A model generated the notes under the pieces. It ran no database searches. It saw only the letters and a program-made list of their open reading frames with translations, and was not told where the DNA came from. Below are positions 23,169 to 64,000 of a stretch of DNA of 64,000 nt, one piece after another; the first letter of the stretch is position 1, and every line of letters starts with the position of its first letter. Location of the stretch: contig JAGVEL010000017.1 of the NCBI GenBank assembly GCA_020058285.1, forward strand, positions 2,027 to 66,026, read 5' to 3'. The stretch is from Candidatus Omnitrophota bacterium (lineage in GTDB: Bacteria; Omnitrophota; Gorgyraeia; JAHJTE01). A program made the position numbers and the translations under genes.

Positions 23169-25481
23169 CTATCTCCAATATCGCTGTAATGTAAAGTAAC
23201 CCTTGCGTAACTGTCTCAAAAACGGACTCATTGCTCCATCGCCTTGAGATACCACGCCAAGCCATTCTTCGTACATAAACCCATCGGGAAATGGCCCTTT
23301 AAATAAGCCTTTTGTATCATGAATGCTCGGCTCATAAGCCTTCCACCATTCATCCAAATACTCAAAAACAATACCGCCCAAGGCATTGCCATAACCATCT
23401 TTGTTAAAGGCTGTGTTTGACATTATATCCTGCCAACAACCTTCTAAAAATTGCGCCTGGCCAAGTTCAGCTTGCTCTCTATCCAAATTATGGGCATAAG
23501 CCGGGCAACCAAATTCAGTAATAAACGCGGGCTTACCTGTTTCAAAGAATACTGACTGCCAAAGGTCAGCAAAACCAAATTCTCCCCGGTAAGCATTTGC
23601 AGCAAAGATATCCACATTGGCAGCATATTTTGCAAACTTATCCAGAAATAACGTATCACCATTGGCTAAAGCTATCGGATGAACATTATCTATTCTTTTA
23701 ATCTCCGCAGCTACCTTGTCGCAGAATTTATAAAAGGCATCGGGCTTTTTATCGGCATTACAAGCAACGCCGTAAACATTTTCATTGCCTAAAAGCCACA
23801 TCAAAATATAAGGCTCATCTTTAAATTCGTTTACCATTTTTGTAACTGAATCCAGCATATTTTTTTGATGTTCGGGATTTTCATAATCTGTCCCTTTATA
23901 CCAATCCGCGCTAGAGCCAATTGCATACTTACCTAAATAATCGCCCATAATAACCATTATTCCAAATTCCTCATAGAGCTGACGCAGAAGTTTTTTATTT
24001 TTTTCAGTCAAGGCAAATGGTTGATGATAAATCCTTATTGTATTTACCCCCATATTTTTCATAAGCTGAAAATCGCCAATCGGAAACTCATCCGCATCCT
24101 GTTTGTTATTAAAATTCTTATCCACAAATGCGTCAAACGGGCCATCGCACAAATTGTTTCGGTTATAATCGTAATCCATCCAGTTTAGCAGAGTGCCGTC
24201 GTCAGGGCTCTGGCCAACTTTTGTCGGCGAATATGTTATACCTTTAATTATATATGGTTTATTATCCACATATAGCCGCCAATGCCGGTTATCAAACTGG
24301 ACTAGTTTAATCCTTTCCCCGCCGATTTTCTTTGTCACTTTTACTCTAAGCTTCTGGCCAGATGGCAGAGTAGCAACCTTATCCAGTAAATTAGTATGCA
24401 CTAACTTGCCAGGATCAACGATAACCACATCATTGGTAATATCCTTGTCAAAACTATTAATTATGCGCACCTTGGCATTTTCAAGAGTTAAACCTAAATT
24501 AGGATTGCGAAAACATAAATATTTGATCTTGGCAATTGCTACCGGGCCGATATACCAAGGCGTCTGCCAATAAGTCCAGCCATAGCTTGCCGGAAAATGC
24601 ACAATAATTGCGTAATATGCCTTTATTGCCTGCTCAACGAATCCGGCTTTCTCTAAGGCAAAGGCTGTATAAAAAAGTTTCACACCTTCAGGCTCGCTGG
24701 CAGTTGCCCATCTGTAAAAGGCAGCTTCTAAATCCGGGCTGTTAACATAATCCCAATGATTACCTTTAAGCCTGCCTTCTTTCAGTGCCTTGCGGAAATT
24801 AGGATCCCAGCGCACACTGGTTGAATTTGGGTATATTCCTTCGCCAACTGCCTGAGCCAACCCTTCCTGATCAATGATTTCATATTTATAATCCTTGCTG
24901 CCAATGCCGCTGAATTTTCCAAATTTTTTATATTCAACCGGAAACTGGTTACCTGAATCATAAAGAGTTAATTTAGTCACAGGTCTTTCGGCAACTGGTT
25001 TCACATCGTTGCCATATGGTTTTTTGCCCTCAATTTTGTCCAGGATATTCTGGCTTTTTTCAGATACAGACCAAAACCAGCCGCGCGGATCCCAGGCTTG
25101 TGCAAAATGATAATTAACTACTGCCTCTTTCAAGGCCGACTTTGCTTCCTCAAATTTTCCAAGCTTGAACAATGCTTCTCCTCGGATAAAACAACAGGTA
25201 GCAACATCATTTAATGCGCTGTATCGGCCTGCCTTATCTTTAGACGCCAGCGCATTCAAGCTTCCCTGTTGTTTATGGGCTTCCTGCGCATAATTATCAA
25301 TGCATTCCTGGGTTATCTTCATCAGATTATCTAAATCCTCTTTACTTGATGCCTCCCAGGCCTTGCGCACGTATTCAGCGGAAGGCAGTGGCTCAGCGAA
25401 AACAGTCCATGGTCCATGGTCCATGGTCCATAGTAAAAATAAAATAGCTAAGCCAACAACTTTGTGATTTATTTTTCTCAT
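23169..25481 (-). CDS. Secreted glycoside hydrolase, clan GH-A TIM barrel (GH5-like) with an N-terminal accessory region
   Basis: 770 aa with a signal peptide. The acid/base motif is LLGNENVYG and the nucleophile motif is AFITEFGCPAY. The context is a beta-glucoside utilisation locus. Confidence 0.7.
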   Translation of the reverse strand: MRKINHKVVGLAILFLLWTMDHGPWTVFAEPLPSAEYVRKAWEASSKEDLDNLMKITQECIDNYAQEAHKQQGSLNALASKDKAGRYSALNDVATCCFIRGEALFKLGKFEEAKSALKEAVVNYHFAQAWDPRGWFWSVSEKSQNILDKIEGKKPYGNDVKPVAERPVTKLTLYDSGNQFPVEYKKFGKFSGIGSKDYKYEIIDQEGLAQAVGEGIYPNSTSVRWDPNFRKALKEGRLKGNHWDYVNSPDLEAAFYRWATASEPEGVKLFYTAFALEKAGFVEQAIKAYYAIIVHFPASYGWTYWQTPWYIGPVAIAKIKYLCFRNPNLGLTLENAKVRIINSFDKDITNDVVIVDPGKLVHTNLLDKVATLPSGQKLRVKVTKKIGGERIKLVQFDNRHWRLYVDNKPYIIKGITYSPTKVGQSPDDGTLLNWMDYDYNRNNLCDGPFDAFVDKNFNNKQDADEFPIGDFQLMKNMGVNTIRIYHQPFALTEKNKKLLRQLYEEFGIMVIMGDYLGKYAIGSSADWYKGTDYENPEHQKNMLDSVTKMVNEFKDEPYILMWLLGNENVYGVACNADKKPDAFYKFCDKVAAEIKRIDNVHPIALANGDTLFLDKFAKYAANVDIFAANAYRGEFGFADLWQSVFFETGKPAFITEFGCPAYAHNLDREQAELGQAQFLEGCWQDIMSNTAFNKDGYGNALGGIVFEYLDEWWKAYEPSIHDTKGLFKGPFPDGFMYEEWLGVVSQGDGAMSPFLRQLRKGYFTLQRYWR

Positions 25482-32739: not shown

Positions 32740-32774
32740 CCTGCCTGCCGGCAGGCAGGGATTTTTTAAAAAAG
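32740..32774 (+). terminator. GC-rich perfect palindrome cctgcctgcc/ggcaggcagg followed by GATTTTTT (hairpin/terminator-like; orientation ambiguous)
   Basis: Seen directly in the GH94 operon leader region. On the plus strand it looks like an intrinsic terminator. It could instead be an operator or leader structure. Confidence 0.35.
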
Positions 32775-59200: not shown

Positions 59201-62200
59201 TTCCTATCTAATTTGATTGCTTCCGGAGATAAGCCAAAATCAATAAATCTACGTGCTGTTTGGTCATCTTTTAAATTATAAATAAAATAAGTCAATACTA
59301 ACGGCAGGATTGAAAGAAAGGTAAGTAATAATGGACTGTGGACTGTGGACTGTGGACTGACTGTCCCGAGCAATGTCGAGGCATGGGCTGAAGAAAAGCC
59401 GATTAAGGACAAAATAGTAAATATACCAGCTACAAGCAAGAAGTTAAATCTGGGCAGAGTGCCGCTTAAAGGCGAGCTGGATTCGGATTGTTTACCGGGT
59501 TCATATAATACTTCTACTCTAGACATCCATGCAGGAAATAGCTTGCCTGGAAATAGATCCATTAAAAATGTATTTCCATCGGGTTTAGCCCGTATTAGCC
59601 GCACTCTGATATCTCTAACGACAGCTCTTACCATATTAGATGACCGGAGATTATTAACCTCATCTATATGAGCTAGATAATATCGTATGCCTTGATCTTG
59701 GAGATATCTTAGGCTGACCTTGAACAGATTATATCCGATATTATTAGAAACATGCGTTGGGCTCCTAGCGATATCACCTTCGGCAAAGTCCTCAATTCTT
59801 ATATCTGGGGACAATATAGAGCAAAGTTCGTTAAACATAAATTTTCTAAGCATCATCAAAGTACGAAGGCCTACAATATTACCTCCGTCTCTGCTACGGA
59901 CAGCCCAAGCCTTGATCATATCTCTAATTCGGTCGGTTAAATCAAAATTTATAAGGTCAAAACTTATAACGGCACGAAAGTCAGATGCCGCACTTTCAGT
60001 TGACAATCTCAGAGCTTCTTCGGCAAACCGAGAATAATCTGAAGATTCTGCTGTCACAATCTCAAATTGCTCACCGATTGAGCCAGATTGACTACCCAAT
60101 GGTGAACTCTGCATTTCATTTAAAAACTCTAATACCCCCTCAGGGCCAGGGACTTTTGTATATGTAACCTTTTTGCCTAAGGCCGCAGATAGGTTTTGTT
60201 CAAAGCCAGCATAGATTGCGCTAACTTCAGGTAAAGCCAACATACTATGGTCGTTCAAACTATCGCCGAAGATTATTGTTTTCTTTAGGGGAATATTAAG
60301 CCGCTGAATTAAACTTAAGACAGCCTCGCCTTTAAGCACAACAGCAACATCAACCACTTCCGGAGTATAAAAGATATGTAATGTTTCATCTCTAATTTTC
60401 TCGTTTAATTTCTCAGCGATTTGCTTTGCATGTACACCTAACACTGAATCGGTAATCAATAGGCTGACCACGCTGTCTCTATTATCCAGTAATTTTAACC
60501 GACCATCCTCAAAATATTTCCGTAATCTAAGCTCATCAATTACATCCATCATCTGGCTTAGTATATGTCTCCTAGCCTCAGAGTCTATGATATTGCTGTT
60601 ATTATTATCAAATGTTAACTCCCCATTTCCGTCAAAATGCCAGGAACAGCCCCCGGTATCGGTAAAAAGGTGGATTTTATGAGCGTATTTTATTCTGGTC
60701 TGCTTATCAATATACTTAACTAACAATTCATCTAAACCAGGTATGCCGTTGACATTATGCATGCTTCTGCCGGTAATAATTGCTATATCCTTGCCTAATT
60801 TTAGTAATAATAACAAAGCCAACATTGGCTTAGAAATAGCTGTCCTGAATTTTCCTAAGGTGTCATCATAATCAAATATGAACAGCTTAAATTGCGATAA
60901 TTTTAACTTGTTATTTATTAACGAGAGAACGCTCAGTAATCTCTTAAGTTGGAGTAGAATGTTGTGGCTGCTGGAATCAGATTGACTAATTAATGGCGAG
61001 CTGGGTAAATTTTTCCTCGCCGCAAGATAATACATATTGCAAAGTCCTTCCGAAACAATTACTGGCTCGTCTTGGCCTACCTCAACTCTAAATTTCATTA
61101 TGGACTCCGCCTCTAAGCCTGCCAGCCTACATTCCTTTGCAACATATTCAGGCGGAGCTCCGCGTATATGAAACCTGCCAATTAATTTTTCAGGCCACAA
61201 ATAATCTAAAATAACCACCATACCATTGTTGTTTAAGACCTGGCTGACTTTAGATAAAATCTGACTAACCTCTCTCATATTGCACATAGATTCCTGAAAA
61301 AGCACAATATCAAATTTTTCAGTATCAGTGTTAACTTCTAATACTTCGAGTAAGTCAGCGGCATTTCCAACATAAGCTTTTATCCCAGCCTCTTTAGCTA
61401 TCTGCACCATCTGCTCAGCTATATCAATACCTACAATATCGTGTCCATCTTTAACTAATTCTGCTTCAACCGGCGCCTTACCCATTCCCAGAGATAGAAT
61501 CCTGCTGGGTTTATTTTCACCAATACCATTTATTTTTTCTTTTACCCATCTTCTAAACCCGATATTAAGCGTAATATATGTTCCTAAAATTGCCCATCTA
61601 AAACCAGACTTATCATAAACTAAATCCATCTGGTATTTATAAGCATTCTCAATTGCCTGTTCTGAGTCTGTTGTTCCAAGCAAAGCATTGATAAAATCCT
61701 GATTAAATCTAAACAATAATTGCCCGGTTACGCCAGCGACTTCAACTAATAACGAAAAATTTAAACGCTCTGGGTTATAAAAGTCTCTTATATAAGCATC
61801 TAAAAAGATTAAAAATCTGATTAATTCTTCTTCGGACATGGGGCAACGCCTGATTGCAAACATATTTATTTTTAATATTACTAATGTCTTATTATCTAAC
61901 TTATGAAACGGCTCGCTTTTTAAAATTTCTTCACAAAGATTATTTTCGCCATGCAAAACATTCCAACTATCTATATAAGAGTTATCCAATAAATATAAAA
62001 GTTGCGTTAGTAAGGTGTTTTTGTTTTGCGCTAAGTCAACTACGTTTATCGGCGAAGAAGAAATGAGCAGAGTTTTTGTTTTAGGGGTATTTTCAGGTTG
62101 TAATTGTTGTTTCAGTGCACTAGGTTTCGGGTAAGTGACTTGGATTGGTGATGAGGAAAGGAAGGAATTTTGACTATAGACTATTGACCATGGACTATTG

Positions 62201-64000
62201 ACTGATTCCGGCGGCGCCTGAGCAACCTGTGACCATGCCTGGATATAGGCAATAATCTGCTCTTTGTAGGTTAGGAAGTAATTCAAGAATAAAAGCGCAA
62301 AGAAAAACGCAAGAGCAATATTGCCGTCATTAATAACAAGTCCGGCACCTGGCACAAAATATACTACATTGTTCTGACCTTCAGAATGTTGTTGGCCAAT
62401 CAACTCTCTAGTTTTATAATCTGGCGAAAGGCCAAATCTAGTGAGAAGTTCTTCTGCCCTTTTAGCTTCCTGAGTCTCAAAAAGTTCTGGTCTTTTCTCG
62501 TTAAATCTCAATATCTTGTTTACTAAATCATCATAAGCGCCCTGCTCTAACTCAATAATCGATATATATAATGAATGACTCTCGCAACTACACCTTAAAA
62601 TTACCCGATTAACAGTAAAGTAATGTTCGACGAACTTAAGCCAATCAAAATCATAGGTGTTTATTTCTGTTTGCGATATGAAAGCCTTAAATGAATCCTG
62701 GATAATACTGCGTTCATTCTCGGCTATATGTGATATTTTTTGATCTTTAAAATTATAAGCAATGTCCAAATCTGAAGTTGCCAAAAAGCCATTGTAAGTA
62801 TTAAGCAGCATACTCAAGGCTTGGCTGCCAAATATACAAAAATCTAAAGATGAATCTATCTTTTCCTCAATAAGTTTTAGAGCCTCGACAAAAAGCGGGT
62901 GTATGGTAATTGTGTGCATTAATCCCATACCCTCAACCGGACATTGTAGATGATAACAATTATTTTTTGGATCAAGCTGCAAAGAGTCTTTAAAAGGAGT
63001 AAGTGTATGGCCTATATCTTTATCATAAAAATCTGCCTGGAACTCAAAATCAATCTTTCGTTCATTAACTAAAAACGCCGTAATCATTTTGGCTATTCTG
63101 TTACAATCGCTCCTGGTTAAAGAAAATCCTGTAATGAATTCTTCGCTGTCTAAAGAAACATCTTTAAAATCGCTCTTTAAATGAAGTAATTTACTGCGCA
63201 AGCTAAGAAGTGCGCTATCGCATAAAATATCAGGCTGATTTTTATAAAGCTCAGCTAATAATGCAACGCCTCGTTTATGATTATGGTTTATTAGTAGCCC
63301 GATTACATAACTCTCGCGGATTGTTCTAGTTAGAAGCGTATCGTCTTCTTTAAAAAGCGCACCCTGTAAAGTCCGTAAAAGATAATGAGGAGATGGGAGC
63401 CATATCTTTATCTTATCTATCTGCGCTAATACCACAATACTCTCTATCGCAACATAGAATTTTCTGGCTCCTATCTCAAGATTTAGTATCTGGTCAAAGA
63501 AATTGCCTACCTCATCATATTTTAAATTCAATTCTTTGCTCAATATCAAATATTCAGCTATTTCGTGGAATATTGCTATGGGCTGATTAAGAAGCGATTT
63601 ATGGAGGGCAACTAGGTTGGGATTGGCAAAACCAAACAAGTCTTGGAAAGGTGTTAAATAGGCATAAAATTCGGGTGGAGAATCTTCCAAGGCCTCTAAA
63701 AATGCTTCTAATAGCTGTTTATGAGCAGGAAAATCTACGCTTAACCTATGCAGCGCGTCAGCTAAAAGTTTATTATCTATTTTCTCCAATTCTAATTCAC
63801 CTAAAAAGCTGTTATTCTCTGTTGAAACAACCTGAGCAAATTTTTTCCCACCTCTATCTATTATCTCGCTTACCTTTGCGCGTTTTCCTATCTGTGGCAG
63901 GTCGTTATTTAAGTAATCCCCAATTTTCCTGAGTAACTCCAAAGCTGCAATATCTCTAGCCTCGCTAGCCGCATTTTTCTTCGAACTTCTTGCTATCTGC
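35239..64000 (-). CDS. Giant multidomain membrane-associated protein; over 9,580 codons in the window, 5' end beyond the window edge
   Basis: A single uninterrupted minus-strand ORF runs 35239..64000; hand translation past the TTG at 63942 shows no stop up to position 64000. Recognisable modules are listed as separate features. Confidence 0.85.
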   Translation of the reverse strand, partial: QIARSSKKNAASEARDIAALELLRKIGDYLNNDLPQIGKRAKVSEIIDRGGKKFAQVVSTENNSFLGELELEKIDNKLLADALHRLSVDFPAHKQLLEAFLEALEDSPPEFYAYLTPFQDLFGFANPNLVALHKSLLNQPIAIFHEIAEYLILSKELNLKYDEVGNFFDQILNLEIGARKFYVAIESIVVLAQIDKIKIWLPSPHYLLRTLQGALFKEDDTLLTRTIRESYVIGLLINHNHKRGVALLAELYKNQPDILCDSALLSLRSKLLHLKSDFKDVSLDSEEFITGFSLTRSDCNRIAKMITAFLVNERKIDFEFQADFYDKDIGHTLTPFKDSLQLDPKNNCYHLQCPVEGMGLMHTITIHPLFVEALKLIEEKIDSSLDFCIFGSQALSMLLNTYNGFLATSDLDIAYNFKDQKISHIAENERSIIQDSFKAFISQTEINTYDFDWLKFVEHYFTVNRVILRCSCESHSLYISIIELEQGAYDDLVNKILRFNEKRPELFETQEAKRAEELLTRFGLSPDYKTRELIGQQHSEGQNNVVYFVPGAGLVINDGNIALAFFFALLFLNYFLTYKEQIIAYIQAWSQVAQAPPESVNSPWSIVYSQNSFLSSSPIQVTYPKPSALKQQLQPENTPKTKTLLISSSPINVVDLAQNKNTLLTQLLYLLDNSYIDSWNVLHGENNLCEEILKSEPFHKLDNKTLVILKINMFAIRRCPMSEEELIRFLIFLDAYIRDFYNPERLNFSLLVEVAGVTGQLLFRFNQDFINALLGTTDSEQAIENAYKYQMDLVYDKSGFRWAILGTYITLNIGFRRWVKEKINGIGENKPSRILSLGMGKAPVEAELVKDGHDIVGIDIAEQMVQIAKEAGIKAYVGNAADLLEVLEVNTDTEKFDIVLFQESMCNMREVSQILSKVSQVLNNNGMVVILDYLWPEKLIGRFHIRGAPPEYVAKECRLAGLEAESIMKFRVEVGQDEPVIVSEGLCNMYYLAARKNLPSSPLISQSDSSSHNILLQLKRLLSVLSLINNKLKLSQFKLFIFDYDDTLGKFRTAISKPMLALLLLLKLGKDIAIITGRSMHNVNGIPGLDELLVKYIDKQTRIKYAHKIHLFTDTGGCSWHFDGNGELTFDNNNSNIIDSEARRHILSQMMDVIDELRLRKYFEDGRLKLLDNRDSVVSLLITDSVLGVHAKQIAEKLNEKIRDETLHIFYTPEVVDVAVVLKGEAVLSLIQRLNIPLKKTIIFGDSLNDHSMLALPEVSAIYAGFEQNLSAALGKKVTYTKVPGPEGVLEFLNEMQSSPLGSQSGSIGEQFEIVTAESSDYSRFAEEALRLSTESAASDFRAVISFDLINFDLTDRIRDMIKAWAVRSRDGGNIVGLRTLMMLRKFMFNELCSILSPDIRIEDFAEGDIARSPTHVSNNIGYNLFKVSLRYLQDQGIRYYLAHIDEVNNLRSSNMVRAVVRDIRVRLIRAKPDGNTFLMDLFPGKLFPAWMSRVEVLYEPGKQSESSSPLSGTLPRFNFLLVAGIFTILSLIGFSSAHASTLLGTVSPQSTVHSPLLLTFLSILPLVLTYFIYNLKDDQTARRFIDFGLSPEAIKLDRKNPGDYIINTRDLEVTGEYDPKRLWVMDRLRQDDGVRKIVSLGDLLARPLSLDGDLKFRLLTDGERGNNNNGVYLGFVKGIGKPVVVEKLGQASEYSIKKAIYLTQFTDIIGVGPKFCDIISLGNNELAYVMQAVGGRFLSASELEALSAEGASVNILKTRLLEYGLSCTPQCLVSSDNTLAVVIDSGDLYLKREFHQGLPLDLALNKILEQKRSASSPILVSSPISIFTKIKNSKLARLAIVLAGLSCILYFSGAFSWYWSLSNVNILAFIVLGSAIITVIFDFITVYLRTNPTPYNILRIPLELAIGAVNGWIFRIMQLGIENYFPKTGEYGLARSFGLWSAAAVNFVVYCVYKKFEQRLLKTESKVDLKIIIDILAVEALLLFKYPIAQSLPDNVAFTFLQFMNIPSLAVMIWGLNLGRPFLNLYDKLHLEKPINLLRSIIKTKKAHLVIVGAIVALISISLIWPEFAKERLIELGGNHDYHLSWRNIGLFIGFPAVILSLISYLSLFKIKRLENITKIFTNDRLREKLDLYYFTLVTLFLTVAIYSNIAVYILENHTLYLTGCADAEPKSAIALVLLWLIYKWPGIFSRQEHNNFNQHHLFGNRKLAIISLSFACLLLLYLLFITPSFLDQLPFLSLNPSGTLLARFDINYRPSTIDYGPLLAGFGFIAVGLRNNSWVAKMWLGLRLTGRIVLNCLSVSIEEFERLLDREFGDGFAASQFVCKHRLMYDPGLGEWVEPTDDDIASIRAFSRKVDEVYYRYEKKFRWTSPYFSWVAGWLAASCIHFKYNFSVYISAILKIIGGAVLGVGILCLAFYLWYLISLNYGLSLSAVALAKAGTVDQGLIMAGFGFLGMTKANRFPKTGQEVKVIYYWASGIDVETVRQLSQRFPDVEQIYLQDPAFSRDIGSPEKIPSQWGFLYGRVKELIEKVKEQFHLQKEHFHGFHVISKETSNPLNIILEGRQISQLKTLPFRKPTVHIVKVPGDNSALSLFVSFYSHLIRLMRIGDYLFIHKSYLRTDILDDALSGLEGIDAKEFGMKEPKIVQQNWICDLTLADVPKGEDELPKIKTKRLPYVRSGWVVYRKQKKSGPDFVNRKGREDRFERVIIILALGFGIFCFISSICNLLTMDHACLPDRQGLTLAGFGFLALFRKSRERAEEHDPNVISATPAEISSSPITSPETGWGLFKALINKFPWKILGGVFLGIGILCLMPYLGHLISIPALLGFSEGGNCGPLTMDHGPMLAGLGFLGMFALYEQFLRLFSPAEPPFQASKGFERMHLIKIEKRHKSDPPLSVELKFQPLEGLHRFISDFYYAYYNEMAWGVLKDEDVIATYPFGNCLAVAFQGERQGEIITGLTHISQRIGALKENYWAVKSLIDYLKNNLGLERVRIFLQSNSEDNKYLIDLENEVSQCPDTEIFVLPARIYPLYKNQITYLLVTNSAALFVTSGESLCLFWNDSKDAIRDDIGHHAQDLSQLHNEVNLDNPRFRIGGEIQGEPVRTLKDSSLDLEDVSKATTSSSSINYPEPAQRLSKTLIAKLPDESLSGNVVGQPWRTYEANVLEIGYGRGKFLVQQARQNPDKLFVGIEQPPGSPFSSAGEKLPTRIEKKKIKNIKIVYGDVRELVSQLFRRDQLEKIYIISPWFGEGKTLERFRLFPPQEAYGNDFAQALFDRLKVGGEIQILVVDAEYTDEITGHFNSIKGEKQIFVTSDIPDYIVTEMSIFQAYFLRIVKTAPGNTLAQTSSSPISIFARVKNNKWIKIIAKIFTRECLKANIIYLIYKFRKVITINFNNKTPVVLIFGLPASGKTTLGQSLSKKLGIPFISTGELLRKEVNARQALLAHRTPSRVMDKYLYWVLVRSGINLLDISKGLIIDVSPSSSDNLKTLYSFINYMGFNIQAVIYISVNRTIAQNRWLKRRRYADRRQAERIFDRRAKTLCDVVIPELEEFNEQGKLIRINGNKRLPADGEITEILKEKGLPSTPTKTSSSPIGYPEKETKDLVGQGNDYLSVLERLTCLADSQYTTEINQSLKKLILKAKEGAKINNRTEEFINILKLYLDGTNYEIVEFVRKQLISLRSILKQELTHSYAKPKTRIELLRQHRASLDKDIVLFIDPAEDIILYRIGKDDKGKTPVNLINETAEKIMDSENHKSLLIVGLPSAKDGRLPRIFDRKLYVPFAFAKTAVLVTKTPYGQKVFRKVSVLEDRRYIERALKVIDDLKGREIDWRELEGYGIMLRSLFGVRRVSGTIKVDKCGNVTRENKSISFSELPDELLKYIEEERIYPELFDKHGKLLCTFSDSSSLADDLEENIAVLTSHERGKYRFGRSLHFIGGSYDVVISFNKTIWPLQAICAGDIDNFNEKINKFIQVELQRDIGENDDFLFTCSPTAIDKVLAREFKDIADGSILRVKYLRVLSNRKLNFNGEHPVDTKFVQPGDYVVAWFIKDGVKPLLLQYMKIEDYEAQEFLKAAVAESSKVYDGRGNLRMTFCHHRSTLEEIRKITSADGQGAAKLIWSTDGDGCWRFRIDTKNKKSRQYLRYRIGVKNQPLVVWTNPVTGYPELAITLEDLRNLTTSSIVYKLSNNNSRGSKNTELVSRLNSELKQNEKLLQEISGYPLEKIFAKYPHLTRAVLYRRDNSTNTLCGNFTGKFRKVSAHQLRSDNRKNSATSRKIMQIIYSVLSKVGIRPADLEAALEDRRNSINWLMVRYTQPDTIQAARLAILYLICNADATPIDVEQDVINGWIDEWREKYTNIETVLTDFAELERKLRELEEDVGAKPVVNSIVHTEKRTIILDILSEIWRYIPKTRIERMLDFPRVLIGKFEQEKQRRAQLCIWARLDEPCREDSDVDYKILALTLKEKLVGIISDDCLEAERLSGQEDSASVFSARRIMSELTAVLELDKKLGTGFISKELRTEITTMTSHVAGVLSTRRAERVEKDTQNRNNHDSNGSIDLTHSRNNFHHSLPNPWESEIGSLEGRNSRNLRRYNQRFEQGNNILSASSPLRPGGELFGFSLVAKETNPDWQVRQISSSSPVDAEGPENPEFKVFYTSEESPKDNPFKAQIEELLDKARNNIIQSLDDFPGSKEEPYLVPVLQGGNFTHPHWQEVFKPIFEHLDLLNGFDLVGSLNKTLKDMTEFIKQDLNIILVGGPRYIHFHKNNQFVIAYLDIEQKTLYISLKFFNSRYLLRHTSLVLQFIAEAVSRIKFSSRENIPPEIKQLITMLDLPDSLIKTINYYLYQQYDYDDKALRDLRTQTQVAQTAGYLQRCNLSPTQLFLDKFREGARFLSIVFAPLSSELYLLLKDIASAIPDLSQQGKLTHLVFYYHEEIAKIQKAVNRYIEADKDEIDKRRKELLSLIDETLKYRTGFLKISLPAEFEQYEQEYNKDAEDLRQKASRAYMDVFDKVRRANRTNNKHPIKIIFIDGDSSAQVAAKKLRRIIFNHNPKACILIHGNAYHLLKGPIFEEHFGASRPIKRINKQGLLKYQLQDIIGTSGFQTIFYTTLQRTLSDSANPEDSLTSAARDWHFGSFALDRIENSPVAEELVAYWLWQMKYGEVADGVIFALDRRDDGGEPETVWTGITSDSDKQPKPVPVSTPIASEIPANITHIFNEKGYRIASSPITSSTIKDLAEAINEYTSKAAVSVDLSQQGKVRLISGDVELAEITITNEHPFYLVANRLNIRVINFSREVEQWIVEKLFMTLQNEHRQGVSRPKRRYSDLSPKWTAARKQAGTGFAYDVLINPEEKDYGSPEWDAKEVELEIQIIKYRFLSVLKDDTHFYKRDIDALLRPEGTQLKPKSLFRIVNAFNDWFGKIWDPVFCKHLAWEHYEKNRLILIDYIKGLLPYLEAYDNEHKTDLTTFAKISLSLLERLGKSRISESEYEEFIRKAKALSMPESSSPIEPPDSRQGGGKNHRANGNRRKTRRYHFEDFLYIDSRKFLEIYPLIIEAIRGKALSEDEMKWLKGFARLFDETGKMSVTSKHQDALTFADLRWVLEYGLDYRQDESLEEEKDFRFPYICQYTLFGVSEICARNSIAHKWLTTNEPGEKNWHNFPVIKILGVEFILDVAYEQFYDLYWQNQLNCKIVLLPYALVKQGLFKDRSYMYTDWPEITRINLSPTGAVESYEIRDRHKDGRVLLRGDYLTGSEFILSLVSGGESTIYLQGDSHDSAITIKDDYEGNLAFIVGKNLVGSNKINTEGIERIEIWRATDDRCSLCIIRKTNKKDLPPLNPRQGGAVSSPVESRSISCYLLTKYLLVNLETRMAYFGLSDELKERVRNILGDIKSLGVFRDGEYVYNPLLLNLFRKLKIDMPLAYLYAQAYALAKTTPHLNDLDEAAVDDCIEKILKLKPRFIRSLFCEYFPYLVKLEDKITVDSEFIATHVGKENFIRQLIGSFFTQNLEFTNSASTNFTLLITGYKDEIKKLQKIINQFFSELGQKDYLDELLKQARELRHNKKGILGFSGRLTDLETSFEEQLGVLGVKTVEDKFKKQELESLAEAIERLPLYKERAAKLNSYEDVAIKVFLTDPDEAVQQCSETQKQKLSTAITATSLELISYWQVAYAVILANLAHFDQETFKFFKERVPILLPQDQHKGKKKGERRDLRPILIGRNGLARVINEYFVFGVDPNDIYLDGWGASVEKEDCRRVGVNEPYLKSLDQSIDFFNEYRETEAYKKFGLGPRIINSIFPIIEAFRKIDQREQGRAKCVDFALLYAALLVALDIVSQDKIFIIGNAGHLFVYIDEDDGYLVSNKLIFDKEMIASGDRRAEEALRTCTGSAVSNIFTFKGFYDAYRGMNNENNGFSSIPGQELKRILEKIDTFFGFPLRKYNLSDVKYVDSPAIMPDLKQFINPERLDNGAIKLGEFRVEEFKQEMYRLAQQYRETQPDSPLCFLAYAARDLLNVEYPEVFAIANNRDWLVREAAEKIATSIDDAIKYAREGLKLGKAFLARLKIPRPDEVIRFGTNEPAHLVPVLYGLIYHSPHISQAEKQEMYYVYADDDSFVYVNGKFISTKTFEVTNEIPKNITHIFNEKGHYESIASSPVPEKSSYSQRDEGLSQQGCIVKATISTAAGFLEVIYSQDGAENNFYELWLNGERIDQNNYGHPGIFYDNPAGFCFIVREDTRGGILEVPYLSLESQYQWLGIGSALVSWLSQQASEKDINTLLSGKTKNINAIKIFLGALEEGSRKFEIEVLTIFGHTFWRRISYRKLLSLFEKEPYKNFMRISGRPRTSSPVTQTAVAALFANLKLFLKGQSYLKEVPKTIKAIIFIGVIVTSVAFAFVSIWIDTLSQSAWFLFFIQFLPYAASALILCAAASLFGQWRKGAVATWQLIKNYTIVQFGIEAYWYCIFVGLSLTYDKLSIDRPLHISFSVLTIVIFNLINASLTSSLIEVLNYPANLLEFFLRKHVYKLTLEQSRREKKENLWKLTWFSLKWWWVVGLVIFSDVNITFFDTTIHLKPTEWVFVVVIATSILEFLFSKKKANILDGRLIQQNNEVYSKMPVIGCDVASMPQQIHYQQDDGQGNDLSTSSPLKSKGSFEHYMGNKVINSFSSQQGYFTLEKISSTGYQTILKIEAKLLAVALDVIQRKRIAMTGEGNLLFLAGILRGDYHTNIYSVLEYSFKARQMLEQDKWWQVEDISDIEIVNLHRMPKVNLCKIFGFLESMAAKGLTWFDFIREYPIEVLKLTDDTFFILDGSHRLETAILLGERKIRAKVYSIKQGSEIGSRVIEFAAKRRQELNKQYQFDTAQRRFTDDADKIIKISFGTRQLESPKLCQYLWSTDQPKEIAIFYFPEIFYKAGYIKPGRINTHSPAFAYFKAFILACLGSGSIEDDILVSVIKDIRRKQKTVSSPVRQLNNSGQRHYHRENADPWSGVFESEDLEEDWLGYHHKSRNSSRARHYQQGKQSRRSARAKGKSQQETQFDMVAVTGTLASLLRHGAIFYDFSLDEFGFVSLETVLPILQQEYNGLEKKDLIDLAENDPDGRFEIKQNRIRARYGHSIKVLPVGEPIEPPEFLYHGTPTANTQAVLCSGLKSMRRQFVHFSLDPDKALSIALRRARNVTALKIKAREAHESGVKFYREADVFLAGFIPGNFIVATELTAARSAADIQHGCVNLNESAIIRRFAKEDGYVVLDTQMANKQTLLRIDERLFRVIHAAEYCLSQEMAVPIEANLLIMTDMFREIPIGDLRIAGPDYIVKARHLTEDQKWWQEVGLKEIPIAEIQRMHSSHLFRYLRFLDYLCDNKLFWEDFIDSYPIDVFQLPWGSYFTLDGMHRLDLACLVGAQTITSRIYHNKIDDPNGHLMSGWMVGYAKELEKEYRFSNFKERFIHQLYALTPLLNAFPQFSSYEHKGDRLTMTFNFPALPAIPLLPIENNIEFIYLVSLAQNITGMGSERFVNRLLEEWRKINKQIQGSSPIGNDDTNPKSSSAKRFWPGSGDLKSPQSTVNGPRLTETRQHSPSARCGLSGICRDEPQRADGSEFGLGRVAHYRHNTSEENPRVGNNELVRQEQSILEELKNQLGKAHVSASLVSSLFDRLKSDKKVTEKAVILSALIKNLLIRFTRRRRYQNFEAEDISKPIYIAEALIASPDIIERAGELLSLTSKLKMTKGVRRELGESIKKAEEGKGGRFKRSVFDMICIDAKNHKANIGKAFVVDCINDYYVLLSCGHLSKSARTGILKINEKAKKTVGRTFIVMDNESDDISVLLMHKRDVNRKVFKDGKLVPIKLLLTPPARRFAWVIKGSNHDVSVGHLVLTGDKVVLLGANTYRGDSGAPYLIRIGKGYFVIAVHGYPGPVGRRLTHKIFAEMNIALQGKESNFSLVVSNDSFIETIREFLQKQLQNDKGVKCATLHSNSLSLGDGVRKHIHPHGKEKGRGGKAYCQNPKGEQGFGEFNNPRTTVAHSLTNRVFGRDEPQRADGSEFGLDRVAHWPGNYQSSSPLADDDVTKYMHPYWEEKGWKWEKPSLTDIRFITIRFLDPIQFVYSCWPRTPSEEGELHPKRAQNASQILKAYYYMDPENAYKIFSNVFGISEKFGQITSYLAPDLAADMFNYSMNIKPSWDRKIEGNIPIVWLTRAEFSQVSMSQYLSDLLVELIIKKNYTSELWRKEMLAIRSAIQKELLAIGKERLIKIFGEDQEILDWLKQNFPEVFKTFEAIPAESDIGVAAGVLPIENLDETVSSPVQQNNKKCLVLDADGILWSGIVGEDGFNGIKITEEHKEFQKTVRALKERDIILAINSKNNPEEVIGVLERHPEMILRKDDFTIIKANWQDKATNLREIAEELNIGMDSLVFIDDSPHERELIRLSYPEVFTPDIPDRPIERIQLLIGSGLFPEGKITEEDRRRTQLYLAKSKRDELKGQAVSLEEYYRSLDMKIIIREGQENLPYISRIFQLTQRTNQFNLTPGERSKEVVKWDVRGVGSLTAKIFTLELIDKFGNAGIVGVMRLGRGYNICEWEIDTFCLSCRAIGLTVEHAFMAYVVNQLREQGVTTLQGTYIPTSKNALVKDFYRQLGFRLVREGSLKHRHGQKVLYWQANLDEISLKSPEWITLLGSEDFKAEDRLKLTQDLFSSTFDINELASEWFKLARNNGLSDQKLKETWQLALNEIPNEDILRKLLRLEINFLGFELYREIKGDCHFLRVPCDQEREAEKKLEQDGFIIIAVCETGRERWGNDFNEVTVHYSITYVEPGHIDDVEITRYAKPLYTYFNRELKNKSWIGRLYDLVFEYKLPPEEDIYHLLRNTLKDILMDFDDRTDKEWKEYLDTYYIRRTNLQELVDKDELGGYVHPRWRENPWKWGAPSLEKMKSAIKKDVSTWVYNLFSKRDGFDSGYIEDLKDDFIAYYYLDPYNIYEALSLLGRERSSFDYILSKLPIDLTVDMIHYCLGQLRLDKYRGQEYKQGNNVSKIIVGFILNCDEKVEPICGHLSEEEMFEVIEDIKYYGDVSYHRGEILKELQSFGIQKIKRIIEAGAISNYILEWLQKKFPEVFK
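36500..36950 (-). other. Giant ORF module: GNAT-like acyltransferase fold following the FkbH-like domain
   Basis: The HAD-IIIC plus GNAT arrangement is typical of FkbH-like proteins. The segment is GNAGIVGVMRLGRGYNICEWEIDTFCLSCRAIGLTVEHAF. Confidence 0.35.
37100..37650 (-). other. Giant ORF module: HAD-IIIC (FkbH-like) domain
   Basis: LVLDADGILWSGIVGEDG (FkbH signature xLDxDxTLWxGvxGEDG)...AINSKNN...FIDDSPHE. Confidence 0.55.
38411..38475. repeat. Intragenic direct repeat, copy 1 (encodes RDEPQRADGSEFGL); 40 nt identical to 39732-39795
   Basis: ctaagccaaattcagaaccatctgctctctgcggttcatc is identical in both copies. The copies flank the protease module. Confidence 0.8.
38790..39400 (-). other. 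Giant ORF module: chymotrypsin-fold serine protease (GDSGAP catalytic-Ser motif)
   Basis: CGHLSKS (candidate His), ESDDISVLLM (candidate Asp), and TYRGDSGAPYLIRIGKGYFVIAVHGYPG (GDSG motif at about 38876-38893). Confidence 0.5.
39732..39795. repeat. Intragenic direct repeat, copy 2
   Basis: See copy 1. Confidence 0.8.
40250..40650 (-). other. Giant ORF module: ParB/sulfiredoxin-like domain 2 (DGxHR motif)
   Basis: YFTLDGMHRLDLACLVG at about 40370. It is homologous to the module at 42000-42400. Confidence 0.4.
40900..41440 (-). other. Giant ORF module: Tpt1/KptA RNA 2'-phosphotransferase domain
   Basis: LASLLRHGA...IRARYGHS...FLYHGTPTANTQAVLCSGLKSMRRQFVHFSLDPDKALSIALRR...KFYREADVFL matches the KptA signature (LRH..., RA.QGHS, HGT, R..VHLS). 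Confidence 0.6.
42000..42400 (-). other. Giant ORF module: ParB/sulfiredoxin-like domain 1 (DGxHR motif)
   Basis: FFILDGSHRLETAILLGE, at about 42100. Confidence 0.4.
42700..43500 (-). other. Giant ORF: third transmembrane cluster
   Basis: AIIFIGVIVTSVAFAFVSIWI...WWWVVGLVIFSDV hydrophobic helices. Confidence 0.5.
53250..53800 (-). other. Giant ORF module: P-loop NMP-kinase-like domain (Walker A GLPASGKTT)
   Basis: VVLIFGLPASGKTTLGQSLSKKLGIPFISTGELLRKE, with downstream lid-like and Arg-rich segments. Confidence 0.55.
54000..54560 (-). other. Giant ORF module: TrmB-like (m7G-type) SAM methyltransferase fold
   Basis: VLEIGYGRGKFLVQQARQNPDKLFVGIEQ...KIVYGDVRELV...KIYIISP. Confidence 0.45.
55400..59500 (-). 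other. Giant ORF: two polytopic transmembrane regions containing repeated (T/S)(M/I)D(H/Y)GP(M/L)LAG(F/L)GF(L/I) helix motifs
   Basis: There are long runs of hydrophobic segments. The motif recurs at about 57211, 55801 and 55471. Confidence 0.5.
60170..60900 (-). other. Giant ORF module: HAD-superfamily phosphatase (Cof/IIB-like)
   Basis: Motif I FIFDYDDTLG, motif II IITGRS, motif IV GDSLNDHSM. Confidence 0.6.
61050..61520 (-). other. Giant ORF module: class I SAM-dependent methyltransferase domain
   Basis: Motif I ILSLGMGKAP, then VGIDIAEQMVQIA, then FDIVLFQESMCNM, then NGMVVI. Confidence 0.55.

What the first reader, a model, noticed from the sequence alone, without database searches (positions are those of the whole stretch)
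25409..62220. Degenerate heptanucleotide tandem arrays (GTCCAYR / GTCRATR, 3-5 units) embedded in-frame in coding sequence, in both orientations
The arrays are as follows. 25409-25436: (GTCCATG)x3 GTCCATA, in the GH gene, encoding WTMDHGPW in the signal peptide. 59333-59360: (GGACTGT)x3 GGACTGA. 57213-57245: GTCCATA GTCGATA GTCGATG GTCTATA. 55473-55500: GTCCATG ATCCATA GTCAATG GTCCACA. 55805-55825: GTCCATG GTCAATA. 39843-39870: TGGACCA TTGACTG TGGACTG TGGACTT. 62181-62215: GACTATA GACTATT GACCATG GACTATT GACTGAT. Seven-nt periodicity is incompatible with codon periodicity. The arrays occur in both orientations and encode unrelated peptides, MDHGP versus STVHSP. So this is a DNA-level element tolerated in 21-28-nt doses. 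Candidates are a protein-binding array, a slipped-strand (phase-variation) site, or the footprint of a specific mutational or insertion process.
Basis: seen in the sequence. Interest (0 to 1): 0.6.

Follow-up and report, generated by a model that had tools for sequence, protein, structure and literature searches.

The report
Seven-base repeat arrays inside genes
Short runs of a repeated 7-base unit really are embedded, in frame, in a secreted enzyme's signal peptide and in a giant gene of an uncultured Omnitrophota bacterium; they belong to a phylum-wide excess of 7-base tandem repeats that resembles the cyanobacterial "STRR" repeats, and they look like stable, tolerated DNA-level repeats, not on/off switches.

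Summary
The window holds eight GTCNAYR-type heptanucleotide arrays against 0.01 expected by chance. Period 7 is the only over-represented tandem period. All eight arrays are read through in frame: one in the signal peptide of a GH2-like hydrolase and seven in a giant ORF of at least 9,567 codons. They occur in both orientations and in different frames, so the repeat is in the DNA, not the protein.

The organism is Candidatus Omnitrophota. In 1.47 Mb from 82 Omnitrophota loci I found 121 period-7 arrays against 1.7 expected, with 91 different unit types and a median of 4.3 units. They lie mostly in intergenic DNA and in the first 150 nt of ORFs. The signal-peptide region of the hydrolase carries about 100 times more arrays per kb than the mature region.

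Phase variation is not supported. All 80 complete orthologues keep the signal peptide in frame. Independent assemblies of two related species show SNPs but no indels in arrays. Stop-containing unit variants occur only where the stop falls out of frame.

My best reading is slippage-born heptanucleotide simple-sequence repeats (LSSR/STRR-like), homogenised locally and kept only at permissive sites such as signal peptides, loops between membrane helices and linkers. A cis-regulatory role is not excluded. The kind is known; the phylum and the signal-peptide bias appear undescribed.

The parts
25405..25432 (+). GTCCATG x3 plus GTCCATA. On the coding (minus) strand it reads (T/C)ATGGAC x4 and encodes WTMDHGPW. 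It lies between the hydrophobic core and the VFA|E cleavage site of the signal peptide of the GH2-like hydrolase (23169-25481, minus strand).
   Evidence: There is no inverted partner and no local hairpin (z = -0.7).
39851..39880 (-). GTCCACA GTCCACA GTCAATG GTCCACG on the minus (coding) strand, encoding SPQSTVNGP. It lies 26 residues after an SSPI module junction of the giant ORF.
55470..55497 (+). GTCCATG ATCCATA GTCAATG GTCCACA, encoding CGPLTMDHGP. It sits in the loop between two membrane helices; this is copy 4 of a repeated membrane-helix hairpin module.
55782..55820 (+). A two-unit array remnant (GTCCATG GTCAATA, 55807-55820) preceded by a 21-nt palindrome, CCTGCCTATCCGGCAGGCAGG (55782-55802), inserted in frame into the array. 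The stretch encodes LTMDHACLPDRQG. This is copy 3 of the membrane-helix module.
56664..56684 (+). A decayed array, GTCCCTG GTCAACA GTCCCCG, encoding GTVDQGL. This is copy 2 of the membrane-helix module.
57213..57240 (+). GTCCATA GTCGATA GTCGATG GTCTATA, encoding YRPSTIDYG. This is copy 1 of the membrane-helix module. The stop-containing variant TATAGAC occurs only in a register where TAG is out of frame.
59330..59360 (-). (ACAGTCC)x3 preceded by TCAGTCC on the coding strand, which reads (GGACTGT)x3 GGACTGA on the plus strand. It encodes SPQSTVHS, in a short loop between a signal-peptide-like segment (which follows an SSPL junction) and the next membrane helix of the giant ORF.
62168..62206 (-). 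GTCAATA GTCCATG GTCAATA GTCTATA on the coding strand, encoding SVNSPWSIVYS, 7-18 residues before an SSPI junction. The one deviant unit (CATGGTC) sits exactly where the consensus unit would give an in-frame TAG.
3743..3810 (.). An intergenic inverted pair of arrays: GAACAATA x3.2 (period 8) and TTGTCTA x3.4. It forms a hairpin that ends 13 nt upstream of the start codon at 3730. It is the same phenomenon with a different unit.
   Evidence: z = -4.3 and -4.8 on the two strands.
11948..11983 (.). A TACAAAC-type array (about 5 units). It overlaps the stop codon of mnmG and ends 23 nt upstream of the next start codon (11925).
13896..13994 (.). An inverted pair of AATGACA/AAATTCA-type arrays in the 5' leader of mnmG. 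It is a member of a dispersed composite element that is also found at several sites in other Omnitrophota loci (L067, L082).
42880..42896 (.). A short ACCCACC array (2.4 units) inside a membrane segment of the giant ORF (KWWWVVGL). It is a marginal member.

Best explanation
The arrays are heptanucleotide simple-sequence repeats of the LSSR/STRR type, a genome-wide habit of this lineage (Candidatus Omnitrophota).

Inferred mechanism:
1. They arise and are homogenised by strand misalignment (slippage) in a 7-nt register during replication or repair.
2. Because 7 is not a multiple of 3, a run of units is translated in all three frames and gives a 7-residue periodic peptide.
3. Selection therefore removes arrays except at positions where almost any short peptide is tolerated. 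These are intergenic leaders, signal peptides that are cleaved off, loops between membrane helices, and inter-module linkers of the giant protein.
4. Selection also keeps arrays short (about 4 units), in frame and free of in-frame stops.

In this window the GTCNAYR arrays are bare arrays. They have no conserved flanks and no hairpin partner. Four of them were multiplied by duplication of a protein module. They are passengers in coding sequence, not switches.

Shown: their existence, their excess, the period specificity, the translation in frame, the location bias, the stability of copy number in close relatives, and the turnover of units between species. Inferred: slippage as the generating process, and near-neutrality.
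For: - Period-7 specificity. The window has 8 arrays against 0.24 expected. The 82 Omnitrophota loci (1.47 Mb) have 121 against 1.7; periods 14 and 21 follow as multiples, and all other periods give 19 or fewer.
- Unit diversity. There are 91 canonical unit types among 121 arrays. Across species, unit similarity at the orthologous signal-peptide site equals the control: 2.0% against 2.2% of pairs match at 6/7 or better. This points to a general process, not one recognised sequence.
- Concerted evolution. Orthologues P0004 and P0005 are 88% identical, yet their N-terminal peptides imply that the leading units read GATACTG in one and GATACTC in the other (the P0004 units are back-inferred from its protein).
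- Permissive-site bias. The signal-peptide region of the GH2-like gene has 2.7 arrays per kb against 0.027 per kb in the mature part. In the giant ORF the arrays lie in loops between membrane helices or near SSP[ILV] junctions. The residues around array 39851 are outside every homologue alignment.
- Translation under purifying selection. 80 of 80 orthologues are in frame. Stop-containing unit variants occur only out of frame.
- Stability. Independent assemblies show no indels in arrays. Eight strains of one protein cluster show point changes but the same length.
- Bare arrays. No flank is shared with any other locus.
- Literature. Heptanucleotide repeats are the commonest 5-11 nt LSSR class in prokaryotes and have been ascribed to polymerase slippage (Mrazek 2007, as summarised in PMC4679880 and PMC4692102).
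Against: - Arrays are about 6 times denser in the signal-peptide region (2.7 per kb) than in intergenic DNA (about 0.44 per kb). Tolerance alone does not obviously predict this.
- Units within one locus resemble each other more than units from different loci: 24.7% against 4.8% of pairs match at 6/7 or better. In this window 8 of 12 arrays share GTCNAYR, which hints at a genome-specific preference.
- One array is 100% conserved between two species whose genes are 72-73% identical.
- Neighbouring arrays are often inverted (18 of 25 pairs). Array-bearing 5' regions fold more strongly than controls: mean z = -2.65 against -0.72, and 19/48 against 6/60 have z < -3. Independent slippage does not explain that.
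- Slippage itself was not observed, and no read-level data exist for this organism.
Confidence: 0.6

Rival explanations
1. The arrays are functional cis-elements. They would be multivalent binding sites for a lineage-specific DNA- or RNA-binding factor, or building blocks of hairpins at gene starts that tune translation, mRNA stability or secretion. TAACTGA repeats in Beggiatoaceae and heptamer repeats near start codons in Nostoc have been proposed to work this way.
For: - There is a genome-specific unit family: 8 GTCNAYR loci in 64 kb, and same-locus units are more alike than cross-locus units.
- Arrays concentrate around start codons. 35 of 121 are intergenic, and 60 of the 75 arrays in ORFs with a complete 5' end lie in the first 150 nt.
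- The three intergenic arrays of the window end 13-54 nt upstream of start codons.
- Array-bearing 5' regions show an excess of strong hairpins.
- The array shared by L010 and L047 is perfectly conserved against 72-73% gene identity.
- Precedents exist in PMC4679880 and bioRxiv 10.1101/2022.06.06.494920.
Against: - There are 91 unit types and no cross-species conservation of units at the orthologous site.
- The same unit occurs in both orientations relative to transcription within one operon-like, single-strand region, which argues against an RNA sequence motif.
- The window's coding arrays have no hairpin (z from -1.2 to +0.2).
- Once composition is controlled, sense and antisense strands fold equally well (z = -2.65 against -2.93, p = 0.30).
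- Other secreted proteins encoded in the window have no arrays.
Confidence: 0.22
2. The arrays are contingency loci. Gain or loss of one 7-nt unit would shift the frame and switch the hydrolase or the giant protein on and off, as in E. coli K1 neuO (heptanucleotide repeats in the 5' coding region) or Neisseria opa (CTCTT in the leader peptide).
For: The unit length is not a multiple of 3. One array lies in the 5' coding region of a secreted enzyme. Two arrays are perfect 4-unit tracts. The genes concerned encode surface or secreted proteins of a probably host-dependent bacterium.
Against: - 80 of 80 complete orthologues are ON, although 31 of 81 orthologue loci have arrays in the signal-peptide region.
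- Copy number is identical in 3 assemblies that differ by 14-41 SNPs, and in 6 assemblies of another species. The look-up by identical hydrolase protein pre-selects that gene's own array, but not the other arrays in those loci.
- Eight strains of one cluster differ by point changes only.
- Tracts are short and mostly interrupted.
- A frameshift anywhere in a 28.7-kb ORF with 7 arrays would be an odd way to build a switch.
- Arrays also sit in leaders of housekeeping genes such as mnmG.
Confidence: 0.07
3. The arrays are by-products of a conserved amino-acid repeat, with selection acting on the peptide, or they are chance.
For: Four arrays belong to four copies of one protein module, T[MIV]D[HYQ]G[PL]..AG[FL]GF, in one orientation and one frame.
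Against: The other arrays use the opposite orientation or other frames and encode unrelated peptides. Intergenic arrays exist. Chance expectation is 0.01. Orthologues of the hydrolase carry completely different array-encoded peptides at the same site.
Confidence: 0.03
4. The arrays are footprints or parts of small mobile elements, such as target-site duplications left by repeated insertion and excision, or the arms of MITE-like hairpin elements.
For: - A 21-nt palindrome is inserted in frame in array 55782-55820. It recurs at 32740 and at 12 further sites in other Omnitrophota loci.
- A composite AATGACA/AAATTCA element at 13896-13994 recurs at non-orthologous sites in L067 and L082.
- Inverted array pairs are common.
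Against: The GTCNAYR arrays share no flanks with any of the 200 other loci held and have no inverted partner within 200 nt. Four or five identical units would need repeated precise cycles at one site.
Confidence: 0.08

Closest known systems
Heptanucleotide long simple-sequence repeats (LSSR) of prokaryotes (Mrazek, Guo and Shah 2007, as summarised in PMC4679880 and PMC4692102)
   Same: They are tandem 7-nt units, far more frequent than composition predicts. Period 7 stands out among periods 5-11. They are scattered over the genome, and length and sequence change between close species.
   Different: That work reported them as mainly intergenic and noted that units of 3n are the ones found in genes. 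Here all eight arrays of the finding are translated. The phylum (Omnitrophota) was not in that survey, and none of the Omnitrophota papers I could search mention them.
Cyanobacterial STRR sequences (Calothrix/Anabaena; Mazel et al. 1990; units recalled from memory as CCCCAGT, TTGGTCA, CAACAGT)
   Same: They are short tandem heptamer arrays in several families per genome and in both orientations. After rotation the units are within 1-2 substitutions of this window's units: GTCCCCA, GTCATTG and GTCAACA against GTCCACA, GTCAATG and GTCAATA. GTCCAYR arrays also occur in at least 120 unrelated metagenome contigs with GC of 33-72%.
   Different: The phylum is different. STRRs are described as intergenic. 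Homology, as opposed to convergence, is untested. The unit comparison rests on memory, not on a tool result.
TAACTGA direct repeats of marine Beggiatoaceae, cyanobacteria and Bacteroidetes (MacGregor 2015, PMC4679880)
   Same: There are 2-6 copies per set, mostly just upstream of start codons. A minority lie inside ORFs, at the periphery of proteins, where they are translated into 7-residue periodic peptides (LSVISYQ). That paper reaches the same conclusion: insertions survive only at tolerant positions.
   Different: There, one heptamer dominates the genome and related heptamers are rarely repeated. In Omnitrophota there are dozens of unit types. Here the arrays of interest are inside genes.
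Phase-variable coding repeats: E. coli K1 neuO heptanucleotide repeats (background in PMC13001214; mechanism from memory) and Neisseria opa CTCTT repeats in the leader peptide (from memory)
   Same: The repeat unit is not a multiple of 3 and lies in the 5' coding or signal-peptide region of a surface-related gene. It is translated in all three frames.
   Different: Those loci have long uninterrupted tracts, strain-to-strain differences in copy number, and ON and OFF alleles. None of these was found here.
GGGAATC / GGGGA(C/T)T heptamer repeats of Xanthomonas and Nostoc (Rehm et al. 2015, PMC4692102), and small dispersed repeats of Nostoc (Elhai et al. 2008, from memory)
   Same: They are intergenic heptamer arrays, sometimes in inverted pairs, with extensive length and sequence variation between close species. 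As I recall it, Elhai et al. reported very small mobile elements of about 21-27 nt inserted in heptamer repeats. That parallels the 21-nt palindrome at 55782-55802.
   Different: Those units are G-rich and form quadruplexes, and they are not in coding sequence. I could not read the Elhai paper.

Membership tests
Heptanucleotide LSSR / STRR-type arrays | Head-to-tail direct repeats with a 7-nt unit and at least about 3 copies | tested here: met
   Seven of the eight GTCNAYR loci have 3-5 units. 55807-55820 has only two.
Heptanucleotide LSSR / STRR-type arrays | Over-represented against composition, and specifically at period 7 | tested here: met
   The window has 8 arrays against 0.24 expected. 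The 1.47 Mb of Omnitrophota DNA has 121 against 1.7, with other periods at 19 or fewer.
Heptanucleotide LSSR / STRR-type arrays | Predominantly intergenic location | tested here: not met
   All eight GTCNAYR arrays lie in ORFs. Phylum-wide, 35 of 121 arrays are intergenic, where intergenic DNA is 5.5% of the sequence, and most of the rest lie in the first 150 nt of ORFs.
STRR in the strict sense (heterocystous cyanobacteria) | Cyanobacterial host and units CCCCAGT / TTGGTCA / CAACAGT | tested here: not met
   The host is Candidatus Omnitrophota. The units differ by 1-2 nt from the STRR units as I recall them. The arrays work like STRRs but are not filed as members.
Simple-sequence contingency locus (phase variation) | A repeat whose unit is not a multiple of 3, located in the 5' coding region or promoter | tested here: met
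   Array 25405-25432 lies in the signal-peptide codons of the hydrolase.
Simple-sequence contingency locus (phase variation) | Copy number varies between strains or reads | tested here: not met
   No other copy of this locus exists in the metagenome collection, so the window's own locus could not be tested. In relatives, 3 assemblies with 14-41 SNPs and 6 assemblies of another species show no indel in any array, and 8 strains of one cluster have the same length.
Simple-sequence contingency locus (phase variation) | Both ON and OFF (frameshifted) alleles occur among genomes | tested here: not met
   80 of 80 complete orthologues have an in-frame signal peptide.
Simple-sequence contingency locus (phase variation) | A long uninterrupted tract | tested here: not met
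   The window's arrays have at most 4 perfect units and most are degenerate. The phylum median is 4.3 units.
TAACTGA-type repeats next to start codons | Arrays lie within a few nt to tens of nt upstream of start codons | tested here: not met
   This does not hold for the eight arrays of the finding. It does hold for the window's three intergenic arrays, which end 13, 23 and 54 nt upstream of ATG codons.
TAACTGA-type repeats next to start codons | One dominant heptamer per genome | tested here: inconclusive
   8 of 12 arrays in the window are GTCNAYR, but only 64 kb of this genome is available. Across loci there are 91 unit types.
Protein-level (amino-acid) repeat | The same peptide in the same frame and orientation at all sites | tested here: not met
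   The arrays use two orientations and different frames and encode unrelated peptides. The feature holds only for the four paralogous membrane-helix module copies.
MITE / REP-like hairpin element | Inverted arms forming a hairpin, and flanks shared between copies | tested here: not met
   The GTCNAYR arrays have no partner within 200 nt, fold with z from -1.2 to +0.2, and share no flanks with other loci. The feature holds for the intergenic pairs 3743-3810 and 13896-13994.

The most novel reading that the evidence does not exclude
In Omnitrophota, heptamer arrays may not be mere debris. They could be a lineage-wide system that keeps rebuilding gene 5' ends.

Arrays often come as inverted pairs. 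The A-rich arm, read in frame, gives the Lys/Asn-rich n-region of a signal peptide. The complementary T-rich arm gives the hydrophobic core. The same pair forms a long hairpin that starts at the start codon. Examples are L053, L004, L082 and L077.

On this reading a DNA repeat process would generate and replace secretion signals, translational control hairpins, or both. The window's GTCNAYR arrays would be solo remnants of that system, spread into the linkers of a giant gene.

Three observations are compatible with this:
- a 100-fold enrichment in the signal-peptide region;
- completely different N-termini within protein clusters at 90% identity;
- an excess of hairpins.

None of them shows it.
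Probability: 0.2. Interest if true: 0.75.

Novelty: new variant of a known kind. Interest (0 to 1): 0.47.

Why it matters
Heptanucleotide tandem repeats have been known in cyanobacteria since 1990 and were found to be the commonest long simple-sequence repeats of prokaryotes in 2007. Their origin and function are still open.

Omnitrophota offer an unusually dense natural experiment. The same orthologous site, the signal peptide of a conserved hydrolase, carries arrays in more than a third of 81 orthologue loci from different species. The unit differs almost every time, the frame is always kept, and copy number is stable between close strains. That makes rates of birth, homogenisation and loss measurable, and it separates "where arrays arise" from "where they are tolerated".

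There is a practical side. These arrays produce odd 7-residue periodic N-termini and linker peptides that confuse gene-start calling, signal-peptide prediction and homology searches in Omnitrophota genomes and their giant genes.

Tried and rejected
1. **Copy-number polymorphism at the window's own locus.** A metagenome scan with the two flanks of array 25405 and a variable gap found nothing, not even the source contig. Exact look-ups of the window's proteins also failed.
2. **Allelic pairs among the metagenome hits.** I scanned metagenomes for GTCCAYR x3.7 hoping to find such pairs. At least 120 contigs matched, but none is homologous to another. This gave no polymorphism test. It only showed that the unit family is widespread, in contigs with GC of 0.33-0.72.
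3. **RNA-specific structure.** Sense strands of array-bearing 5' regions fold 4.3 kcal/mol better than antisense strands (p = 0.001). This disappears when each strand is compared with its own shuffles (z = -2.65 against -2.93, p = 0.30). The G.U asymmetry is therefore compositional, and in coding arms it is confounded by selection for hydrophobic codons. I do not claim an RNA-level element.
4. **Position statistics.** My first figures used longest-ORF starts. Inspection showed that some "5' coding" pairs (L024, L030, L019) are really intergenic hairpins directly after the upstream stop codon. The split between "intergenic" and "first 150 nt" is therefore approximate. The comparison for the GH2-like gene uses tblastn anchors and is more reliable.
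5. **Conservation of unit sequence across species at the orthologous site.** It is no better than the reverse-complement control, apart from a small TGCCAT[ACT] group (L007, L010, L047, L066).
6. **Homologues of the giant-ORF segments that carry arrays.** The word-indexed search found none. The exhaustive search found 35 distant relatives of the protease-like core only. tblastn against all held Omnitrophota loci gave one weak hit. So I could not test whether arrays are present or absent in orthologous giant genes.
7. **Known RNA families.** Rfam finds only a tRNA at 3851-3922.
8. **Literature.** I found no paper linking Omnitrophota with heptanucleotide or tandem DNA repeats. Elhai 2008 and Mazel 1990 could not be read.


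Full report
**1. The observation**

Reading the sequence at the seven stated places shows a run of 7-nt units at each. The coordinates are off by 0 to 10 nt.

| Stated position | True position | Note |
|---|---|---|
| 25409 | 25405-25432 | |
| 39843 | 39853-39880 | |
| 55473 | 55470-55497 | |
| 55805 | 55807-55820 | two units only |
| 57213 | 57213-57240 | |
| 59333 | 59333-59360 | as stated |
| 62181 | 62172-62206 | |

The degenerate pattern (GTCNAYR)x3 with up to two mismatches gives 18 overlapping matches at eight loci. The extra locus is a decayed copy at 56664-56684. Only 0.01 matches are expected from dinucleotide shuffles.

I also ran a scan that makes no assumption about the unit. Period 7 gives 8 arrays against 0.24 expected under a 3rd-order Markov model. 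Apart from period 14 (5 arrays; a multiple of 7), no other period from 4 to 15 gives more than 1. Tandem Repeats Finder agrees. It also lists period-7 arrays of other units: 3787-3810 (with a period-8 partner at 3743-3768), 11948-11983, 13899-13930 and 42880-96.

**2. Context**

All ORFs of the window lie on the minus strand.

Array 25405 lies in a 770-residue GH2-like hydrolase. Its N-terminus is MRKINHKVVGLAILFLLWTMDHGPWTVFA|EP, so the array encodes the stretch between the hydrophobic core and the predicted cleavage site.

The other seven arrays lie in one ORF of at least 9,567 codons (35239-63942, still open at the window edge). This ORF is real coding sequence. It contains, in frame, two methyltransferase domains, a HAD phosphatase, an adenylate-kinase-like domain and a Tpt1/KptA domain. 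A 28.7-kb open frame cannot arise by chance at 38% GC.

The homologues of the hydrolase that carry a source name are annotated almost exclusively as Candidatus Omnitrophota/Omnitrophica. The gene order (PilZ, GH94, sugar ABC transporter, MFS, GH2-like, ROK, ribonucleotide reductase) is shared with Omnitrophota MAGs. Giant "multi-enzyme" genes next to carbohydrate-uptake genes are a described trait of this phylum (bioRxiv 10.1101/2023.11.21.568195 and 10.64898/2026.06.07.730766). Neither paper mentions heptamer repeats.

**3. DNA repeat or peptide repeat?**

Relative to the coding strand the family occurs in both orientations. It reads CATGGAC-type at 25405, 55470, 55807, 56664 and 57213. It reads GTCCACA/GTCAATA-type at 39851, 59330 and 62168. 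The encoded peptides are unrelated: WTMDHGP, TIDYGP, SPQSTVHSP, SPWSIVYS. The repeat is therefore in the DNA.

The arrays at 55470, 55807, 56664 and 57213 are not independent. Each sits in the loop of one of four paralogous modules. Each module consists of a membrane helix, a loop, T[MIV]D[HYQ]G[PL], then AG[FL]GF and a second helix. The DNA of the flanks is also similar between copies. That leaves about five independent GTCNAYR loci.

The arrays are translated and under purifying selection. Unit variants that contain a stop (TATAGTC, TATAGAC, CATTGAC) occur only in registers where the stop is out of frame. In array 62172 the single deviant unit lies exactly where the consensus unit would create an in-frame TAG. 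This also explains why the arrays look "degenerate".

**4. A phylum-wide habit**

I fetched the orthologous hydrolase locus, with 10 kb on each side, from 80 Omnitrophota species.

- With the window this makes 1.47 Mb. It contains 121 period-7 arrays against 1.7 expected. Periods 14 and 21 follow as multiples, and every other period gives 19 or fewer.
- The units are very diverse: 91 canonical types among 121 arrays. ACAG/CTGT and TAGT/ACTA are moderately enriched.
- Copy number is narrow: median 4.3 units, 5-95% between 2.9 and 5.9.
- 35 arrays are intergenic, where intergenic DNA is 5.5% of the sequence. Of the 75 arrays in ORFs with a complete 5' end, 60 lie in the first 150 nt. Caveat: crude longest-ORF starts put some intergenic hairpins into "ORFs".

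With tblastn anchors, 31 of 81 hydrolase orthologue loci (window included) carry at least one array in the signal-peptide region. That is 39 arrays, or 2.7 per kb. The mature part has 0.027 per kb.

The N-termini of homologues show the expected 7-residue periodic peptides, such as MKIVHSPQSTVHSPQ, FTVHSTQYTVHS, GYWILDTGYSI and LFAICHMLFAICYLPFAIC. Within protein clusters at 90% identity the mature enzyme is conserved while the N-terminus can be entirely different.

Unit sequence at this orthologous site is not conserved between species. 2.0% of pairs match at 6/7 or better, against 2.2% in the control. One small group is an exception, and it includes one pair with a perfectly conserved array (L010/L047).

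Units within a locus resemble each other more than units from different loci: 24.7% against 4.8% of pairs match at 6/7 or better.

**5. Inverted pairs**

Neighbouring arrays are mostly inverted relative to each other (18 of 25 pairs). They can form very stable hairpins, either directly after an upstream stop codon or spanning a whole signal-peptide coding region.

Array-bearing 5' regions have a mean z of -2.65, against -0.72 for controls. 19 of 48 have z < -3, against 6 of 60 controls.

An apparent sense-strand advantage vanished after correcting for composition. I therefore claim no RNA-specific structure.

In the window only the intergenic arrays 3743-3810 and 13896-13994 form such hairpins. 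The coding GTCNAYR arrays do not. They also have no inverted partner and no flank shared with any other locus I hold.

**6. Phase variation**

- All 80 complete orthologues keep an in-frame signal peptide.
- Three assemblies from three samples of a related species are 99.8-99.9% identical, with 14-41 SNPs over 18-20 kb. They have no indel at all, and both of their arrays are identical, including a perfect 4.4-unit array in the signal peptide.
- Six assemblies of another species give the same result for six arrays.
- Eight strains of one protein cluster differ by point changes inside the array but not in its length.

Caveat: contigs were looked up by an identical hydrolase protein. That pre-selects the hydrolase's own array, but not the other arrays in those loci.

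The window's own locus could not be tested.

Taken together, the arrays do not behave like contingency loci.

**7. What they most likely are**

The closest known class is the heptanucleotide long simple-sequence repeat. Mrazek et al. (2007) found it to be the commonest 5-11 nt class in prokaryotes and attributed it to polymerase slippage (summarised in PMC4679880 and PMC4692102).

Named examples of this class:
- cyanobacterial STRRs;
- the TAACTGA repeats of Beggiatoaceae, mostly just upstream of start codons, with a minority translated at the periphery of proteins;
- heptamer repeats near start codons in Nostoc.

After rotation the window's units are within one or two substitutions of the three STRR units as I remember them. 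GTCCAYR arrays occur in at least 120 unrelated metagenome contigs of very different GC content. So the unit family is not specific to this organism.

My preferred account has four steps. Slippage in a 7-nt register creates arrays. Slippage also homogenises them: the N-terminal peptides of two 88%-identical orthologues imply GATACTG in one and GATACTC in the other across the leading units. Selection removes arrays everywhere except at tolerant positions. The survivors are kept short, in frame and stop-free.

**8. What this account does not explain**

- Density in the signal-peptide region is higher than in intergenic DNA.
- Units within a genome resemble each other.
- Inverted pairs are frequent.
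- One array is conserved across two species.

These points keep a cis-regulatory or structure-forming role alive as the main rival (confidence about 0.2). They also motivate the more novel reading that arrays actively remodel signal peptides and gene starts in this phylum.

**9. Verdict**

The element is at the DNA level, it is tolerated in small doses, and a mutational footprint is the best candidate. Phase variation is not supported.
- The kind of element is known. Its abundance in Omnitrophota, its systematic in-frame embedding in signal peptides and giant-gene linkers, and the inverted-pair architecture appear undescribed.

Noticed in passing
window 35239-64000 (minus strand): The giant ORF (at least 9,567 codons, open at the window edge) is divided by 22 copies of a peptide motif, [ST]-S-S-P-[ILV]. 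The codons vary, so the motif is conserved at the amino-acid level. Recognisable enzyme domains (methyltransferase, HAD, Methyltransf_4, adenylate kinase, Tpt1) each fall between two such motifs. This looks like a polyprotein with regular junction or cleavage sites. The published work on Omnitrophota giant genes states that cleavage points are unknown.
   Followed up: partly
window 38875-38892; 39751-39792 and 38428-38469: A chymotrypsin-like GDSGAP motif lies in a module whose core has only 35 distant homologues among 1.84 billion representative proteins, several of them inside other very long proteins. The module is bracketed by two copies of a 14-residue motif, RDEPQRADGSEFGL. It is a candidate processing protease for the giant protein.
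   Followed up: partly
window 32740-32759 and 55782-55802; 12 further copies in L014, L016, L018, L027, L030, L057, L059, L066, L082: A 16-21-nt palindrome, CCTGCC(TGCC)..GGCAGG(CAGG), recurs 14 times in 1.47 Mb of diverse Omnitrophota DNA, with essentially none expected by chance. It is sometimes inserted in frame in coding sequence, where it gives peptides such as ACLPDRQG, PACPAGR and LPVRQAG. In the window it interrupts a heptamer array.
   Followed up: partly
window 13896-13994; L067 (8054, 9940, 10039, 14895), L082 (8009, 9897, 10016), L133: A composite sequence, AATGACAAATGACAAAATTCAAA..., recurs almost identically at non-orthologous sites in distantly related Omnitrophota genomes. In the window it is one arm of an inverted pair. 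It behaves like a dispersed small element, unlike the bare GTCNAYR arrays.
   Followed up: partly
L002 2806-2835, L003 1954-1986, L023 1067-1094, L024 633-670, L046 4356-4389, L062 4030-4058: In six other species a heptamer array with a different unit each time (ACACACG, AAGCAGA, AAGGGCG, ACAGAAG, AGGACGC, CCGGGAA) sits 220-250 nt from the longest-ORF start of the GH94 phosphorylase gene, about codon 75-84 if that start is real. The window's GH94 (30273-32693) has none. This is a second recurrent array site.
   Followed up: partly
L010 2615-2654 versus L047 8000-8039: The array TTTGCCATATGCCATATGCCATAT in the hydrolase signal peptide is 100% identical between two species whose genes are only 72-73% identical. 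Related TGCCAT[ACT] arrays occur at the same site in L007 and L066. No explanation so far accounts for this.
   Followed up: partly
protein clusters of P0008, P0028, P0065: Within clusters at 90% identity or more, the mature hydrolase is nearly identical but the whole signal peptide differs. One signal-peptide type (MFRIQDAGYRIQAVCF...) appears in two different clusters. This suggests replacement or recombination of 5' ends.
   Followed up: no
window 22884-22993 and 33654-33755: Two intergenic inverted repeats share the arm sequence ACGTAAGTTAT...GCGAATTAA(T/A)CC. This looks like a MITE-like element unrelated to the heptamer arrays.
   Followed up: no
window 25515-25599: A 33-nt tandem repeat (2.6 copies, 94% matches) lies at the 3' end of the MFS transporter gene. 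It encodes an Arg/Glu-rich C-terminal tail...RRAEEEGRRVERRAEEERRRVERRD*.
   Followed up: no
window 48355-48378 and 44098-44121; 38317-38358 and 35812-35853; 37750-37779 and 35242-35271: The giant ORF contains internal duplications of whole modules. Examples are ITHIFNEKG...IASSP[IV], Y[MV]HP[YR]W.E..WKW, and two modules that end in FPEVFK.
   Followed up: no
window 1-64000: All 27 principal ORFs plus the giant ORF are on the minus strand (minor overlapping plus-strand ORFs disregarded), and GC skew is negative throughout. A tRNA lies at 3851-3922 on the minus strand, next to the inverted array pair at 3743-3810.
   Followed up: no
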